Source of the DNA: a virus
Reading direction: 5' to 3' (one strand)
Length of the DNA stretch: 12,073 nucleotides
UHGV virus genome: UHGV-0372056
The notes below the pieces were generated by a model that did not search any database, was not told the DNA's origin, and worked only from the letters and a program-made list of their open reading frames with translations. Position numbers and translations under genes: made by a program. Of the stretch, positions 9,496 to 12,073 are shown piece by piece (the stretch's first letter is position 1; each line of letters begins with the position of its first letter).

Positions 9496-9499
9496 ACAC

Positions 9500-9676
9500 T
9501 CCCCCGGGAACCAGAAAGGATCTGAAAATGGCGTTTTCTAACAAAAACAGCCTTTGTCAGATCCTTTTATATTTTTAAAATTCTATTGATAATCAATCAG
9601 TTAAAAAGAAGAAGAACGGATCTGATTTTTCCCTAAAAATTTTCATAAATAGCGAAAACCCGCGAGGTCGCCGCCC
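9500..9676 (-). other. cos: cos site: cosN (9665..9676) plus cosB with three putative Nu1 R-elements
   Basis: Plus 9665..9676 aggtcgccgccc is the reverse complement of lambda's 12-nt cohesive end GGGCGGCGACCT. The adjacent minus-strand sequence CTCGCGGGTTTTCGCTATTTATGAAAATTTT matches the recalled lambda left end. Downstream are a CCGTTCTTCTTC element (R3-like) and an inverted pair AAAGGATCTGA (9515..9527) / TCAGATCCTTT (9557..9568), analogous to lambda R2/R1. Confidence 0.8.
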
Positions 9677-9899
9677 CGTAACGGTCTGGATCACCGGAAA
9701 GGACCCGCCAACGACTTTCGCGTGCAGGCATTAAAAATTTTGCAGTTCCATGCCTAGTTGAAACCTCGATTTCTATAACATCCAATTTTGTAAATTTAGA
9801 TATAGCTCAACTTTTCCCAATGTTTTCAAGTGTATAAAAACAATTGGCGTTACGCCATAACACTATACTTAGGATAAGTAAAGATTTTAAGGAGTTTTA

Positions 9900-10967
9900 A
9901 TGAGTCAACATCAATATTATCCACAGCTGAAATGGAAGCCTGCTGAATATGAATCTCTGATGCTTTTAGATCAAACTACGCTCTCTGGTTTTACTCCGAT
10001 CATTACCATTCCAGACATAGACTGGGATTATGAAAACGAATGCTACAAGAAGAGTTTGAGTTCTTACTTATCTGACTTCGGTATTAACCTTGCGGCATCC
10101 TGGAAAGCCAATCGTCCTGTTTTGCTGGATGTTAAATATTTAGATAAACATGGTTCGAGCCGCCATCATCCTCTAGATATGTGTATCCAAGATGCTAGAG
10201 TAAATGGTAAGGAAATTATCCCTGTTGTTTCTCCCGCATATTCAACAAACTATATACATGCTGTTCAACGCAACTTAATCAATGGGCTCGCTATATCTAT
10301 CACCCCCCAGACATGGCACCAATTCACAAGTCTGGTTAACCACTTAAATATTCATCCTAGTTTAATTGATGTAATCATTGATTTTGGAGATATTCAAAAC
10401 GCAACTGATAGTTTAAAACAACAAGCATTAAGCATGGTCAACACATTATCAGGCCAAGCTCCGTGGAGAAACTTGATTTTATCTTCAACCGCATACCCAG
10501 CATCACAGGCAGGGATACCGCAACATCAAGTTCATCATATTCCGCGCCATGAATACGATCTTTGGATGTACGTAGTACAGAATTTTAGCAATGGAAGAAC
10601 GCCAAGTTTTAGTGATTATCCCACCGCTAGCTCTACCATTACGAGCGTAGACCCACGCTTCATGTCTCAGTATGTCTCAGTGAGATATTCGAACGATACC
10701 TCATGGATCTTTGTAAAAGGTACCGCAGTTAAAGGAAATGGATGGGGCCAAACTAAAAACTTATGTACTACCCTTGTTAGTTCGCCAGAGTATCAAGTCT
10801 TTGGTTCCAAATTTAGTTGGGGGGATGATTACATTTACCAAAGATCATTAGGCGCTAACAAATCTGGCGGCTCTAAAGAATGGCGTAAAGTTGCACATAC
10901 GCACCATATTACGTTAGTCGTGAGACAGCTTTATTGGTTGGCGCAGACTCAGCCTGCCAAGCCTTAA
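9900..10967 (+). CDS. Hypothetical protein (355 aa), unknown function; cargo gene in the Rz-cos region
   Basis: Long ORF with AGGAG 8 nt upstream of the ATG. AT-rich coding sequence, visibly unlike the flanking phage genes. No N-terminal hydrophobic segment (MSQHQYYPQLKWKPAEYESL...). Aromatic-rich, with His clusters (SSRHHP, QHQVHHIPRH, AHTHHI). I do not recognise it as any lambda gene. Confidence 0.7.
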   Translation: MSQHQYYPQLKWKPAEYESLMLLDQTTLSGFTPIITIPDIDWDYENECYKKSLSSYLSDFGINLAASWKANRPVLLDVKYLDKHGSSRHHPLDMCIQDARVNGKEIIPVVSPAYSTNYIHAVQRNLINGLAISITPQTWHQFTSLVNHLNIHPSLIDVIIDFGDIQNATDSLKQQALSMVNTLSGQAPWRNLILSSTAYPASQAGIPQHQVHHIPRHEYDLWMYVVQNFSNGRTPSFSDYPTASSTITSVDPRFMSQYVSVRYSNDTSWIFVKGTAVKGNGWGQTKNLCTTLVSSPEYQVFGSKFSWGDDYIYQRSLGANKSGGSKEWRKVAHTHHITLVVRQLYWLAQTQPAKP

Positions 10968-11529
10968 CTTTCCAGCCTACGCGTTTCTTTAAGGCTGTTC
11001 TGACTTCAAGCCTGAGATTCGCTATTGGAATATTTTCCGCAATAATATTCCATAACTCAAATCGGGGCTTGCTTTTGATTCCTTTGGAATAGCCCCATCG
11101 TTCAAGTACGTCGATACATTCATCTTTCCAAAGCAATTGAGCGAGCATCAATGTGTCATGGTTTCGATTAAGCTTTTCTCCACGCATGTGCTTTATAAGA
11201 ATGGCGCCTTTTGGCCCAACAGAAACCGTTTTAACGCCCCACCAACCTGGGATTAACTTTAATGCTCCCTCAAGATGTTTCTCAGCTACGACAAGAGTAA
11301 CCTTGTCCATTACAGAAGAATAATGCTTGATTTGAAGAGGCAAACGCTCCAAAGAGTCATATTCACTTTTGAGCTCGTACCCGTGTATAACACCATTTAT
11401 TACAGCAATGTCTGCTCTACTGGCGCCAAGGGATATGGAAAATTCATCGACCACAAGGCAGTCTGGATCTAAATGCGATTCTTTCAAAAGCTTATGATGC
11501 ACCGCGAACCTAACATCTTGATCTTTCAT
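10909..11529 (-). CDS. Hypothetical protein (206 aa) with PD-(D/E)xK-like nuclease motif
   Basis: AAGGAG 7 nt upstream of the ATG at 11529. N-terminal region shows helix, then VVDEF, then RADIAVING, then GYELKS, i.e. the E...D-hydrophobic...E-x-K arrangement of restriction-endonuclease-fold / Hjc-like nucleases. AT-rich; 3' end overlaps the converging 355-aa gene by 59 nt. Confidence 0.7.
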   Translation of the reverse strand: MKDQDVRFAVHHKLLKESHLDPDCLVVDEFSISLGASRADIAVINGVIHGYELKSEYDSLERLPLQIKHYSSVMDKVTLVVAEKHLEGALKLIPGWWGVKTVSVGPKGAILIKHMRGEKLNRNHDTLMLAQLLWKDECIDVLERWGYSKGIKSKPRFELWNIIAENIPIANLRLEVRTALKKRVGWKVKAWQAESAPTNKAVSRLT

Positions 11530-11557
11530 GACTTCTCCTTACTCCCTCCGTTATTGA

Positions 11558-11563
11558 ATTATA
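11558..11563 (-). promoter_or_regulatory. Candidate -10 element (TATAAT) upstream of the 206-aa gene
   Basis: Perfect TATAAT on the minus strand about 29 nt upstream of the ATG at 11529; no convincing -35 hexamer found, so weak. Confidence 0.3.
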
Positions 11564-11880
11564 GCGCACTGCATTTTACTGCATTTGAGAGATTTGACCA
11601 CTTCAATCACAAAATGCTTATCTGCAGCAACAAGATTCATAGCCATACGACTATGGTGATTACCTTTTGTCTGGAAAACTGACCATTCCACGAAGATCAG
11701 ATAGGTCTATAGAATCTTGGTTTGTCATAGCGTTCGCCTTACTTTGAGATGAACCTTTGCTGCATAGGAGATCAGCCCGTCAAGGCTCACCAGCACTAAC
11801 TGACTACTCAAAGGCTCATTCCAAAGGGTTTGGTTCGACGTGGTTGAGTGCACTGCGGTGCGCGGTGAAATACCTGTACA

Positions 11881-11908
11881 AAAATGCCCCGCATCTGCGA
11901 GGCATTTT
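11881..11908 (-). terminator. Hairpin with U-tract downstream of Rz (terminator-like)
   Basis: Minus-strand RNA AAAAUGCCUCGC-AGAU-GCGGGGCAUUUU (about 12 bp stem including one G-U pair) followed by UGU, about 40 nt after the Rz stop. The plus-strand version also ends in UUUU, so it could act in both directions. Confidence 0.4.
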
Positions 11909-11945
11909 CCTGAAAGTCACGTATTAAATTTCAGTGAAATTAAAA

Positions 11946-12073
11946 TTATTTTAAGCACTGCGTCCTGATGTACTCCTGCAGGTAGTTGACCTGCGCGGTT
12001 ATCTTGTCGATTCCACTTCGGAGACGGTAATAATTGAGTTCAGCATCTGCTGTAAGTCTTGGGCTTTCTCCAT
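11946..12073 (-). CDS. Rz: Spanin inner-membrane subunit Rz, C-terminal 41 codons (gene starts beyond the right edge)
   Basis: Frame open from the window edge: ...PRLTADAELNYYRLRSGIDKITAQVNYLQEYIRTQCLK*, matching the recalled lambda Rz C-terminus ...PRLADTAERDYFTLRERLITMQKQLEGTQKYINEQCR*. Confidence 0.7.
   Translation of the reverse strand, partial: GESPRLTADAELNYYRLRSGIDKITAQVNYLQEYIRTQCLK
11999..12073 (-). CDS. Rz1: Spanin outer-membrane lipoprotein Rz1, C-terminal fragment, embedded in Rz in the +1 frame
   Basis: Alternate frame ends ...QQMLNSIITVSEVESTR*, resembling the recalled lambda Rz1 end ...QTPLNGIISPSERG*; its stop lies 53 nt before the Rz stop, as in lambda. Only 24 codons are visible. 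Confidence 0.35.
   Translation of the reverse strand: MEKAQDLQQMLNSIITVSEVESTR

What the first reader, a model, noticed from the sequence alone, without database searches (positions are those of the whole stretch)
10909..10967. Convergent genes overlap by 59 nt at their 3' ends
The 355-aa ORF ends at 10967 and the 206-aa ORF ends at 10909 on the opposite strand, so the last ~19 codons of each are encoded antisense to the other. Their transcripts must be complementary at the 3' ends, which could couple their expression (transcriptional interference or RNA duplex formation). A long 3'-3' overlap is uncommon and constrains both C-termini.
Basis: seen in the sequence. Interest (0 to 1): 0.5.

Follow-up and report, generated by a model that had tools for sequence, protein, structure and literature searches.

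The report
Interlocked tail-to-tail phage-defence gene pair
The 59-base overlap is real. It is the local form, lengthened by one lost stop codon, of an ancient tail-to-tail arrangement that almost every copy of this two-gene phage-defence-associated module shares across bacterial phyla.

Summary
Observation confirmed. ORFs 9900..10967 (+) and 10909..11529 (-) overlap by 59 nt, and RefSeq annotates them identically.

They are a Beta_protein (PF14350, P4 beta-like, TIM-barrel model) and an sce7726/Phage_P4_cII protein (PD-(D/E)xK-like model). They form a gop-less two-gene module between cos and Rz of an E. coli lambdoid prophage.

48 of the 59 nt are a lineage-specific read-through. The closest relatives have TAG where the window has TGG (base 10958, synonymous in beta). 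Their overlap is 11 nt. The added 16-aa tail is predicted disordered, and its length matches a recoding null.

The convergent overlap itself is a family hallmark:
- 56/56 genome loci are convergent and 53 overlap.
- 76/80 viral contigs overlap.
- 6/6 beta-seeded look-ups overlap.
- In 44/56 loci the codons for the last conserved residues of the two proteins lie exactly 1 nt apart, without indels.

No terminator or conserved RNA structure sits at the junction. The two mRNAs must therefore be 3'-complementary. Whether this couples their expression is plausible but untested.

In many loci the same pair closes a HigB / Peptidase_M78 / Beta operon, which is the PD-lambda-2 architecture.

The parts
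9900..10967 (+). beta gene (355 aa): Pfam PF14350 Beta_protein, a homologue of satellite phage P4 beta and of PD-lambda-2 component C. The model is a TIM barrel with a long C-terminal helix.
10909..11529 (-). sce7726 / P4 cII-like gene (206 aa), with a putative PD-(D/E)xK nuclease-like fold.
   Evidence: NCBIfam NF033832, 184 bits. PADLOC 'cll' 4e-31. Homologues carry PF26915 Phage_P4_cII. AF2 pLDDT 88. Best Foldseek hit is SfsA 4dav, E 7e-4, with low TM-score. Invariant E29, D40, E52, K54.
10909..10967 (.). The reported 59-nt 3'-3' overlap, in the antisense phase where codon position 1 faces position 1 and position 2 faces position 3.
10957..10967 (.). The 11-nt overlap present in the closest relatives, from the beta stop codon to the former sce7726 stop codon.
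   Evidence: Gap-free DNA alignment with Edwardsiella, Klebsiella, Pantoea and Pectobacterium loci. Those loci overlap by 11 nt. Nine IMG/VR loci do the same.
10957..10959 (-). sce7726 codon 191: TGG (Trp) here, TAG (stop) in the relatives. The changed base is 10958. On the + strand it is the third position of beta Ala353 (GCC here, GCT in relatives), so the change is synonymous in beta.
   Evidence: and the sequence.
10909..10956 (-). Read-through part of sce7726: codons 192-206 plus the stop. Together with Trp191 it forms the 16-aa tail WQAESAPTNKAVSRLT (residues 191-206), encoded antisense to beta residues 337-353.
   Evidence: Absent from the 190-aa relatives. pLDDT < 50 for residues 192-206. 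Lies beyond the end of the NCBIfam model match.
10932..10971 (.). 40-nt spacer between the codon of beta Leu344 (10929-10931) and the codon of sce7726 Trp186 (10972-10974). In most of the family this spacer is 1 nt, so this clade carries an in-frame +39-nt insertion.
   Evidence: spacing 1 nt in 44/56 loci, and 40 nt in the window plus L004-L007.
11573..11600 (-). Promoter-like site (TGGTCA-16-TAAAAT) upstream of sce7726. A candidate only.
   Evidence: The number of promoter-like sites in the region does not exceed the shuffled controls.
9845..9857 (-). Terminator-like hairpin on the minus strand just upstream of the beta start codon. It is the first such site that a sce7726 transcript would meet after crossing beta in antisense. 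A candidate only.
9640..9676 (.). cos region: the reverse complement of the lambda left end, with cosN at about 9665-9676. It places the module between cos and the lysis gene Rz.
   Evidence: Sequence compared with the lambda left-end sequence from my own knowledge. Flanking terminase and Rz annotations.

Best explanation
WHAT IT IS (shown). The two ORFs are a Beta_protein gene and an sce7726/P4-cII-like gene. They form a two-gene accessory module inserted between cos and Rz of an E. coli lambdoid prophage. It is the gop-less core of the module known from satellite phage P4 (gop-beta-cII) and from PD-lambda-2.

THE FAMILY ARCHITECTURE (shown). Across bacterial phyla the two genes are always convergent. 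Their conserved C-terminal cores are packed against each other. In most loci the codon of the last invariant Trp of sce7726 and the codon of the last conserved Leu/Ile of beta's terminal helix lie exactly 1 nt apart. The next sce7726 codon (Arg187) shares two bases with that beta codon. Each protein's short tail is therefore read from the antisense of its partner's core. Overlap length (10-158 nt) depends only on where a stop codon happens to fall.

HISTORY OF THIS LOCUS (shown). The window's clade gained an in-frame 39-nt spacer, which cut the overlap to 11 nt. In the Escherichia lineage a single TAG-to-TGG change then removed the sce7726 stop codon. That change is synonymous in beta. It added 16 disordered residues and produced the 59-nt overlap. 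The length of the overlap is a passive by-product.

CONSEQUENCE (inferred). There is no room for, and no sign of, an intergenic terminator. Each mRNA must run into the other gene. The two messages are 3'-complementary, and the two promoters fire into each other. I think this most likely makes expression of beta (putative antitoxin or sensor) and of the cII-like putative nuclease mutually antagonistic, through transcriptional interference and/or duplex-dependent decay.
For: Identity of the genes.

Context.

Read-through:
- Relatives are 190 aa and end in WKVRV*.
- In the gap-free junction alignment TAG aligns with TGG.
- The tail is predicted disordered.
- An outgroup (Photobacterium) also has a short tail.
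- A second, independent read-through variant exists in Cronobacter (P0002).

Family hallmark:
- 56/56 loci convergent, 53/56 overlapping, 48/56 in the same phase.
- 40 clusters at 70% identity, of which 38 overlap.
- 76/80 IMG/VR loci overlap, all in the same phase.
- 6/6 beta-seeded look-ups with independent gene calls overlap by 50-53 nt.
- Partner genes in six distant loci match Pfam Beta_protein at full length.

Fixed spacing: 1 nt in 44/56 loci. The DNA alignment of 39 loci is gap-free over about 140 columns. Codon-level display.

Passive length: the synonymous-recoding null reproduces the observed tails; the smallest P(>=observed) is 0.125.

No terminator or structure. No Rfam family.

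Precedent: the P4 record annotates a rho-independent terminator for cII in the 27-nt gap before beta. From memory of the abstract of Ghisotti et al. 1990 (PMID 2403440; not held), mutating that terminator gives a temperature-sensitive phenotype ascribed to defective beta expression.
Against: - No transcript data were available. Promoters are only weak consensus matches. Rho-dependent termination cannot be predicted here.
- P4 itself, and two other loci, have no overlap. P4 gop-beta-cII is nevertheless an active defence system (PMC9122126). An overlap as such is therefore not required.
- The fixed 1-nt spacing could be a frozen accident, because a 1-nt spacer offers almost no target for indels. 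Several independent spacing changes did occur: +39/+40, +5, +11 and -5 nt.
- The toxin/antitoxin roles of the two proteins in a gop-less module are unknown.
- The nuclease assignment rests on one weak Foldseek hit (TM 0.34) plus a motif.
Confidence: 0.72

Rival explanations
1. The interlock is selected for RNA-level coupling. Under this reading, the 3'-complementary mRNAs or the colliding polymerases are an integral control element of the defence module, a protein-coding analogue of type I toxin-antitoxin pairs with 3'-overlapping antisense RNAs. That selection would be why orientation and spacing are conserved.
For: Convergent orientation in every pair examined, apart from one IMG/VR locus whose arrangement I did not look at. 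Spacing invariant across phyla. No terminators at the junction. P4 terminator-mutant phenotype (memory of Ghisotti 1990; the terminator is annotated).
Against: Overlap length shows no sign of selection. There is no conserved RNA structure. Loci without overlap exist, including the functional P4 system. No expression data.
Confidence: 0.3
2. The arrangement is a pure frozen accident with no regulatory consequence. It is kept only because the two cores leave no neutral site for indels and because the two genes must be inherited together. Transcripts would be terminated by Rho, or be too rare to interact.
For: Tail lengths match the null. Spacing did change several times without loss of either gene. 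The window's tail is disordered. 0 of 32 differences between two E. coli variants fall in the overlap, which is unremarkable for 59 nt of coding sequence.
Against: Strict conservation of a convergent, non-operonic gene order across phyla is unusual for unlinked regulation. The mRNAs are complementary by construction if both genes are expressed in one cell.
Confidence: 0.3
3. The added sce7726 tail, or the tails in general, act at the protein level, for example as a beta-binding peptide or a degron.
For: Tails exist in most family members: median about 11 residues after Trp186 in 148 representatives.
Against: The window's tail is absent in relatives of 82-86% identity and is predicted disordered. 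Tail sequences follow from the partner's conserved residues. Tail lengths match the null.
Confidence: 0.06
4. Annotation artefact: one of the ORFs is not a gene, or a sequencing error created the long ORF.
For: In a published survey most long convergent overlaps were 3'-extension artefacts (124 of 178, PMC2478687).
Against: Both products match curated families at full length. The identical ORF ends are seen in 126 complete E. coli genomes and 30 IMG/VR contigs. The extension is a real mutation, not an error.
Confidence: 0.02
5. A bidirectional intrinsic terminator embedded in the overlap insulates the two genes from each other.
For: Three Firmicutes loci have a conserved 12-bp palindrome just after the beta stop codon. 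Four loci have a hairpin plus T-run 30-40 nt after the sce7726 stop codon.
Against: Nothing of the kind is present in the window. Terminator-like sites are no more frequent than in controls: 6/56 after the sce7726 stop and 6/56 after the beta stop, against 7/112. RNAalifold predicts no pairs.
Confidence: 0.04

Closest known systems
Satellite phage P4 gop-beta-cII (DefenseFinder/PADLOC 'Rst_gop_beta_cll'; Ghisotti 1990; Rousset 2022, PMC9122126)
   Same: It has beta (355 aa, PF14350) and a cII/sce7726-family gene in convergent orientation next to cos on a mobile element. The system protects against lambda and P1. A phage accessory gene triggers cell death through it.
   Different: There is no gop homologue in the window or in any of about 140 related loci. 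P4 cII is 264 aa, with a roughly 80-aa extension. P4 has a 27-nt gap with an annotated terminator instead of an overlap. P4 is thus the atypical member of the family.
PD-lambda-2 (Vassallo 2022, PMC9519451): HigB-like A, Xre-peptidase B, P4-beta-like C
   Same: The window's beta matches the PADLOC PD-Lambda-2_C models (4e-32). In 21-24 genome loci and 6/6 look-ups, a HigB_toxin / Peptidase_M78 / Beta_protein operon ends in the same convergent overlap with a cII-like gene.
   Different: The window has no HigB or peptidase gene. The published system is described with three genes. The cloned ECOR42 fragment extends only 396 nt past the C gene, too short to hold a complete convergent cII-like gene. 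I could not check whether ECOR42 has one.
Convergent overlaps created by stop-codon loss (group iii of Palleja 2008, PMC2478687; Rogozin 2002)
   Same: 48 of the 59 nt arose in this way, by a point mutation in a stop codon. The phase (overlap length = 2 mod 3, called 'phase 1') is the commonest one for natural convergent overlaps longer than 4 nt.
   Different: Here the extension sits on top of an older overlap that is conserved across phyla. Published long convergent overlaps are mostly conserved only among very close species.
Type I toxin-antitoxin loci with 3'-overlapping convergent transcripts (e.g. B. subtilis txpA/RatA, bsrG/SR4), and the 'excludon' and non-contiguous-operon concepts. 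Named from my own knowledge.
   Same: Convergent units whose 3' ends are complementary. This gives a plausible antagonistic control of a toxic function.
   Different: Both partners here encode proteins of 206 and 355 aa. No antisense regulation has been demonstrated, and no RNA element is conserved.

Membership tests
Pfam PF14350 Beta_protein | Match to the family model above the gathering score, over its full length | tested here: met
   190.4 bits against a cutoff of 27; model positions 1-342 of 342.
NCBIfam NF033832 sce7726_fam / Pfam PF26915 Phage_P4_cII | Match to the family model above the curated cutoff | tested here: met
   184.1 bits against a cutoff of 70; model positions 1-182 of 184. 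Homologues carry PF26915.
Beta / cII-like convergent pair (defined in this report) | The cII-like gene lies immediately downstream of beta, convergent, with 3' ends overlapping in the phase where length = 2 mod 3 | tested here: met
   59 nt, 59 mod 3 = 2.
Beta / cII-like convergent pair (defined in this report) | 1-nt spacing between the Trp186 codon and the Leu344 codon | tested here: not met
   The spacing is 40 nt in the window and its four closest genera, and 1 nt in 44/56 loci. The window belongs to a derived sub-clade.
gop-beta-cII anti-phage system (P4) | gop gene (small membrane toxin) upstream of beta on the same strand | tested here: not met
   phmmer with P4 Gop finds only P4 itself. 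There is no ORF of 40 aa or more on the + strand between 9496 and 9899.
gop-beta-cII anti-phage system (P4) | beta and cII homologues present | tested here: met
   PADLOC 'beta' 3.5e-10 and 'cll' 4.3e-31.
gop-beta-cII anti-phage system (P4) | Confers phage resistance or abortive infection | not testable with these tools
   Needs plaque assays with the cloned module.
PD-lambda-2 | HigB-like toxin (A) and Xre-peptidase (B) genes upstream of the beta-like gene (C) | tested here: not met
   Upstream of beta lie cos and the terminase genes on the other strand. A and B are present in other loci of the family.
PD-(D/E)xK nuclease superfamily (for sce7726) | Restriction-endonuclease-like fold with a D...(D/E)xK catalytic motif | tested here: inconclusive
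   Best Foldseek hit is SfsA 4dav, E 7e-4, but TM-score is only 0.34. Invariant D40, E52 and K54 fit the motif. A sequence search of the PDB finds nothing.
Antisense or type-I-like 3'-overlap regulation | Both transcripts present and overlapping in vivo; expression of one depends on the other or on RNase III | not testable with these tools
   No transcriptome data. The only evidence is the absence of terminator-like sites.
Bidirectional intrinsic terminator between convergent genes | G+C-rich hairpin flanked by an A-tract and a T-tract at the junction | tested here: not met
   No site within 10850-11050 on either strand. Folding z-scores -0.8 and +1.0.

The most novel reading that the evidence does not exclude
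The Beta / cII-like pair is an obligately interlocked convergent unit, and the tail-to-tail packing is part of its control logic. Under this reading the two promoters, or the 3'-complementary mRNAs, set up reciprocal repression between a TIM-barrel sensor or antitoxin and a PD-(D/E)xK-like effector. This two-gene unit would be the common core of P4 gop-beta-cII and PD-lambda-2. It would also make the cII-like gene an overlooked fourth component of PD-lambda-2-type systems.
Probability: 0.25. Interest if true: 0.7.

Novelty: new variant of a known kind. Interest (0 to 1): 0.5.

Why it matters
1. A feature that looks like a local curiosity, or an annotation error, is the derived form of a deeply conserved gene architecture. 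Conserved convergent overlaps across phyla are rare, and I found no description of this one in the papers I searched.

2. It defines a minimal two-gene core, beta plus cII-like, that is shared by two experimentally validated defence systems (P4 gop-beta-cII and PD-lambda-2). It also suggests that the cII-like gene has been left out of work on PD-lambda-2.

3. It gives a clean natural system for testing whether convergent transcription and 3'-complementary mRNAs regulate a toxin-like module. Natural controls are available: an 11-nt variant, a 59-nt variant, and non-overlapping variants including P4.

4. Practically, annotation rules that flag long convergent overlaps should not trim these genes.

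Tried and rejected
- Intrinsic terminators in or near the overlap: none in the window and no enrichment across 56 loci.
- Stable or conserved RNA structure: z-scores near 0; RNAalifold finds 0 pairs on 39 loci.
- Known RNA families and tRNAs: none.
- A gop homologue as third gene: none anywhere except P4.
- Selection for long tails through stop-codon avoidance: rejected by the synonymous-recoding null.
- Sequence matches to solved structures: none meaningful.
- NCBIfam names for the beta partners (asking whether sce7725 equals beta): no NCBIfam hit for any beta tested, so that equivalence was not established.
- Reading Ghisotti 1990 for P4 transcript data: not held, and two literature searches did not recover a quotation.
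- Finding E. coli PD-lambda-2C, to see whether ECOR42 has a convergent cII-like gene: the profile search returned only environmental relatives in its top 120.
- Promoter prediction: hits do not exceed shuffled controls.
- One IMG/VR locus scored as 'other' orientation and one with no beta were not examined further. L011 (Xenorhabdus) has an orphan cII-like gene, and L097 has a frameshifted beta.
Full report
OBSERVATION

The ORF list gives 9900..10967 (+), 355 aa, and 10909..11529 (-), 206 aa. The shared segment is 10909-10967, which is 59 nt (sequence). RefSeq/PGAP annotates the same two CDSs with the same overlap in a 100%-identical E. coli chromosome and in a 98.8%-identical one. It names them 'beta family protein' and 'sce7726 family protein'. 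126 of 5,426 complete E. coli genomes carry at least 80% of the 2.6-kb region. So do 30 IMG/VR contigs.

WHAT THE GENES ARE

- The 355-aa product matches Pfam Beta_protein PF14350 over the whole model (E 8e-56). It also matches the PADLOC models PD-Lambda-2_C and 'beta'.
- The 206-aa product matches NCBIfam sce7726_fam (184 bits, cutoff 70) and PADLOC 'cll'. Its homologues carry Pfam PF26915 'Phage_P4_cII'.
- In the satellite phage P4 record the genes are gop (+), beta (+, 355 aa) and cII (-, annotated 'sce7726 family').
- Rousset et al. showed that gop-beta-cII protects against lambda and P1. They cite Ghisotti 1990 for Gop being toxic without Beta (PMC9122126). Silas et al. found a phage accessory gene that triggers cell death through this system.
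- Vassallo et al. describe PD-lambda-2 as HigB-like A, Xre-peptidase B and a 'P4 antitoxin-like' C with PF14350.
- Structure predictions. Beta is a confident TIM-barrel model (pLDDT 92) with a long C-terminal helix at residues 325-350. The sce7726 protein is a confident alpha/beta model (pLDDT 88). Its best solved match is the PD-(D/E)xK protein SfsA (E 7e-4, low TM-score). It has invariant E29, D40, E52 and K54. The nuclease assignment is therefore plausible but not established.

CONTEXT

The window is a lambdoid prophage. Portal, head-tail joining, large and small terminase genes lie on the minus strand. Then comes cos: 9640-9676 is the reverse complement of the lambda left end (my knowledge of that sequence). 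The two genes follow, and then Rz, lysozyme and holin on the minus strand. Homology to other E. coli prophages and to P22-like phages breaks at about 9628 and about 11725. The pair therefore looks like an accessory insertion ('moron') of roughly 2.1 kb. There is no gop homologue and no HigB or peptidase gene. It is a two-gene version of the module.

WHY THE OVERLAP IS 59 NT HERE

- sce7726 homologues are mostly 188-193 aa. The closest ones (82-86% identity: Cronobacter, Enterobacter, Klebsiella, Pantoea, Proteus, Pectobacterium) end '...DWKVRV*' at residue 190. The window protein continues with 16 more residues.
- Beta homologues are all 353-357 aa with 99-100% coverage.
- A gap-free DNA alignment of the junction shows TAG in four other genera exactly where the window has TGG, at codon 191 (window 10957-10959).
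- The changed base, 10958, is the third position of beta Ala353 (GCC here, GCT in relatives). It is silent in beta.
- Those relatives overlap by 11 nt. A more distant outgroup (Photobacterium) also has a short tail. The long tail is therefore the derived state.
- The added residues are predicted disordered (pLDDT < 50 for 192-206). The beta residues encoded on the other strand belong to the confident terminal helix.
- A Cronobacter protein (P0002, 202 aa) shows a different, independent read-through past the same stop position.

48 of the 59 nt are therefore a lineage-specific read-through extension.

THE OVERLAP AS A FAMILY HALLMARK

I fetched 65 loci from one-genome-per-species contigs with an sce7726 profile. 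I located both genes with my own HMMs.

- Orientation and overlap. Of 56 analysable pairs (55 genomes plus P4), 56 are convergent and 53 overlap, by 10 to 158 nt. The commonest lengths are 50 nt (12 loci), 41 nt (6), 56 nt (5) and 11 nt (4).
- Phase. 48 pairs have a length equal to 2 mod 3, as does the window's 59.
- Taxa. The loci come from Gamma- and Betaproteobacteria, Myxococcota, Desulfovibrionaceae, Patescibacteria, Bacteroidota, Acidobacteriota, Ignavibacteriota and Firmicutes.
- Redundancy. After clustering at 70% identity there are 40 clusters. 38 of them overlap and 35 share the phase.
- Independent confirmation of the partner. Pfam assigns the partner genes in six distant loci to Beta_protein at full length.
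- Viral contigs. 80 IMG/VR loci give 78 convergent pairs, of which 76 overlap, all in the same phase.
- Search from the other gene. Six Beta proteins from an independent profile search all sit in contigs whose own gene calls show Beta_protein followed by a convergent Phage_P4_cII gene. The overlaps are 50, 50, 50, 50, 53 and 50 nt.
- Family size. The family has 5,166 representatives at 50% identity with E <= 0.001.
- Exceptions without overlap: P4 (27-nt gap), one Photobacterium locus and one degraded Xenorhabdus locus.

FIXED SPACING

I anchored each locus on the invariant Trp of sce7726 (W186) and on the conserved Leu/Ile that ends beta's terminal helix motif NHH..V..Q(L/I) (L344).

- The distance between the two codons is exactly 1 nt in 44 of 56 loci. 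In 39 of them both anchor residues are canonical. The distance to the invariant His336 codon is 25 nt.
- A DNA alignment of 39 such loci has no gap over about 140 columns, at only 54% mean identity. One search shows the codons.
- The sce7726 codon after Trp (CGA or AGA, Arg187) shares two bases with beta's xTC codon. The two cores therefore share nucleotides.
- All variation in overlap length comes from stop-codon position.
- The window's clade has a spacing of 40 nt, an in-frame gain of 39 nt. Other departures are +5, +11 and -5 nt (the last in the Firmicutes clade, which has a different phase).

IS THE LENGTH SELECTED?

For each locus I recoded the partner gene synonymously 1,000 times, using the locus's own codon usage, and read off the tail length. 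The observed tails are typical of the null. The smallest P(>=observed) over all loci and both genes is 0.125, and null medians often equal the observed value. Tails are common and variable in the family: the median is about 11 residues after W186, and 34 of 148 representatives have 20 or more. Overlap length is therefore a passive consequence of the partner's protein sequence. The phase is also the commonest one among natural convergent overlaps longer than 4 nt. What is conserved is the orientation and the abutting cores.

TERMINATORS AND RNA STRUCTURE

- The window has no terminator-like site within or next to the overlap on either strand. Folding energies are unremarkable.
- Across 56 loci, terminator-like sites after either stop codon are as rare as in mid-gene controls: 6/56 after the sce7726 stop and 6/56 after the beta stop, against 7/112.
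- RNAalifold finds no conserved pair. No Rfam family matches.
- It follows logically that if both genes are expressed, each mRNA must contain at least the 59 nt complementary to the other. Without a terminator it probably contains much more. The first terminator-like hairpin on the minus strand lies at 9845-9857, beyond the whole beta gene.

MECHANISM

Shown:
- the identity of the genes;
- the stop-codon loss;
- the family-wide interlock;
- the absence of junction terminators.

Inferred:
- Convergent transcription and 3'-complementary mRNAs make the two genes antagonise each other's expression.

The P4 record annotates a rho-independent terminator for cII just before beta. From memory of the Ghisotti 1990 abstract, mutating it impairs beta function. 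I could not read that paper. If my recollection is right, it is a direct precedent that cII transcription running into beta matters.

Against a required role for the overlap: P4 works without one, and the spacing could be frozen simply because a 1-nt spacer offers no neutral indel site.

I put about 0.7 on the combined statement. I regard its evolutionary part as near-certain. I put about 0.3-0.4 on the regulatory inference taken alone.

COMPARISON AND NOVELTY

The locus fails the defining three-gene composition of gop-beta-cII, because it has no gop. It also fails that of PD-lambda-2, because it has no A or B component. It shares the beta / cII-like core with both. It is best called a gop-less two-gene variant of a known kind.

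I found no published statement of the conserved convergent interlock in the searches I ran. Published surveys say that long convergent overlaps are mostly stop-loss extensions, and that the possibly real ones are mostly conserved only among very close species (PMC2478687). E. coli K-12 has 75 convergent overlapping pairs among 4,131 adjacent pairs (PMC4161906).

VERDICT

The 59-nt overlap itself is ordinary in origin: a stop-codon loss that added a disordered tail. It does, however, point to a family-wide tail-to-tail architecture that is unusual and easy to test. Interest 0.5.

Noticed in passing
L024, L027, L029, L030, L033, L038-L040, L043-L050, L052, L055, L057-L060, L066; L149-L154: In 21-24 genome loci and in 6/6 beta-seeded look-ups, beta is the last gene of a HigB_toxin / Peptidase_M78 (IrrE-like) / Beta_protein operon, which is the PD-lambda-2 architecture. 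It is always interlocked with a convergent Phage_P4_cII gene (overlap 50-53 nt in the six look-ups). The published PD-lambda-2 has three genes, and its cloned fragment ends 396 nt past gene C, too short for a complete cII-like gene.
   Followed up: partly
window 9496-12073, minus strand: sce7726 has the same orientation as the phage late genes (Rz, then cos, then the terminase genes). Beta is antisense to them. During lytic growth, anti-terminated late transcription would read sce7726 in sense and beta in antisense. This is inferred from lambda biology and was not tested.
   Followed up: no
L061, L063, L064 (Streptococcaceae, Enterococcus, Listeria), 13 nt after the beta stop, inside the sce7726 CDS: A 12-bp palindrome followed by a T-rich tract is conserved in the three loci. 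Paired changes keep the stem (GAGTATCATAAA / TTTATGATACTC and variants). It may be a terminator for beta embedded in the partner's coding sequence. This clade also has a different overlap phase (10 and 31 nt).
   Followed up: partly
L038, L040, L048, L053, 30-40 nt after the sce7726 stop, inside the beta CDS: A G+C-rich hairpin followed by a run of T lies on the sce7726 strand. The same bases encode beta's conserved Lys-x-Thr-Gly region. It may be an embedded terminator in part of the 50-68-nt clade. It is not general.
   Followed up: partly
L151 1834-4143: Two tandem Beta_protein genes (375 and 380 aa) follow HigB and the peptidase. Only the second is interlocked with the cII-like gene.
   Followed up: no
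window 9640-9720: The cos site (cosN about 9665-9676, with cosQ-like sequence to its right) lies 180-230 nt upstream of the beta start codon. Beta's promoter must therefore sit in a very short stretch next to the packaging site. P4 also carries its module next to cos.
   Followed up: partly
P0002 (Cronobacter turicensis, 202 aa); L113 / P0045 (206 aa, 59-nt overlap): These are independent C-terminal extensions of sce7726 proteins in other lineages. The Cronobacter one reads through the same stop position. This suggests that loss of this stop codon recurs and is tolerated.
   Followed up: partly
L011 (Xenorhabdus koppenhoeferi), L012, L097: Decayed copies: an orphan cII-like gene with no detectable beta (L011), a beta with a damaged C-terminus (L012), and a frameshifted beta (L097).
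   Followed up: partly
window 11880-11905, minus strand: A G+C-rich hairpin followed by TTTTTGT (GCCTCGCAGATGCGGGGCATTTTTGT) lies just downstream of Rz and upstream of the module. I saw it by eye. It may be a terminator separating the lysis cassette from sce7726.
   Followed up: no
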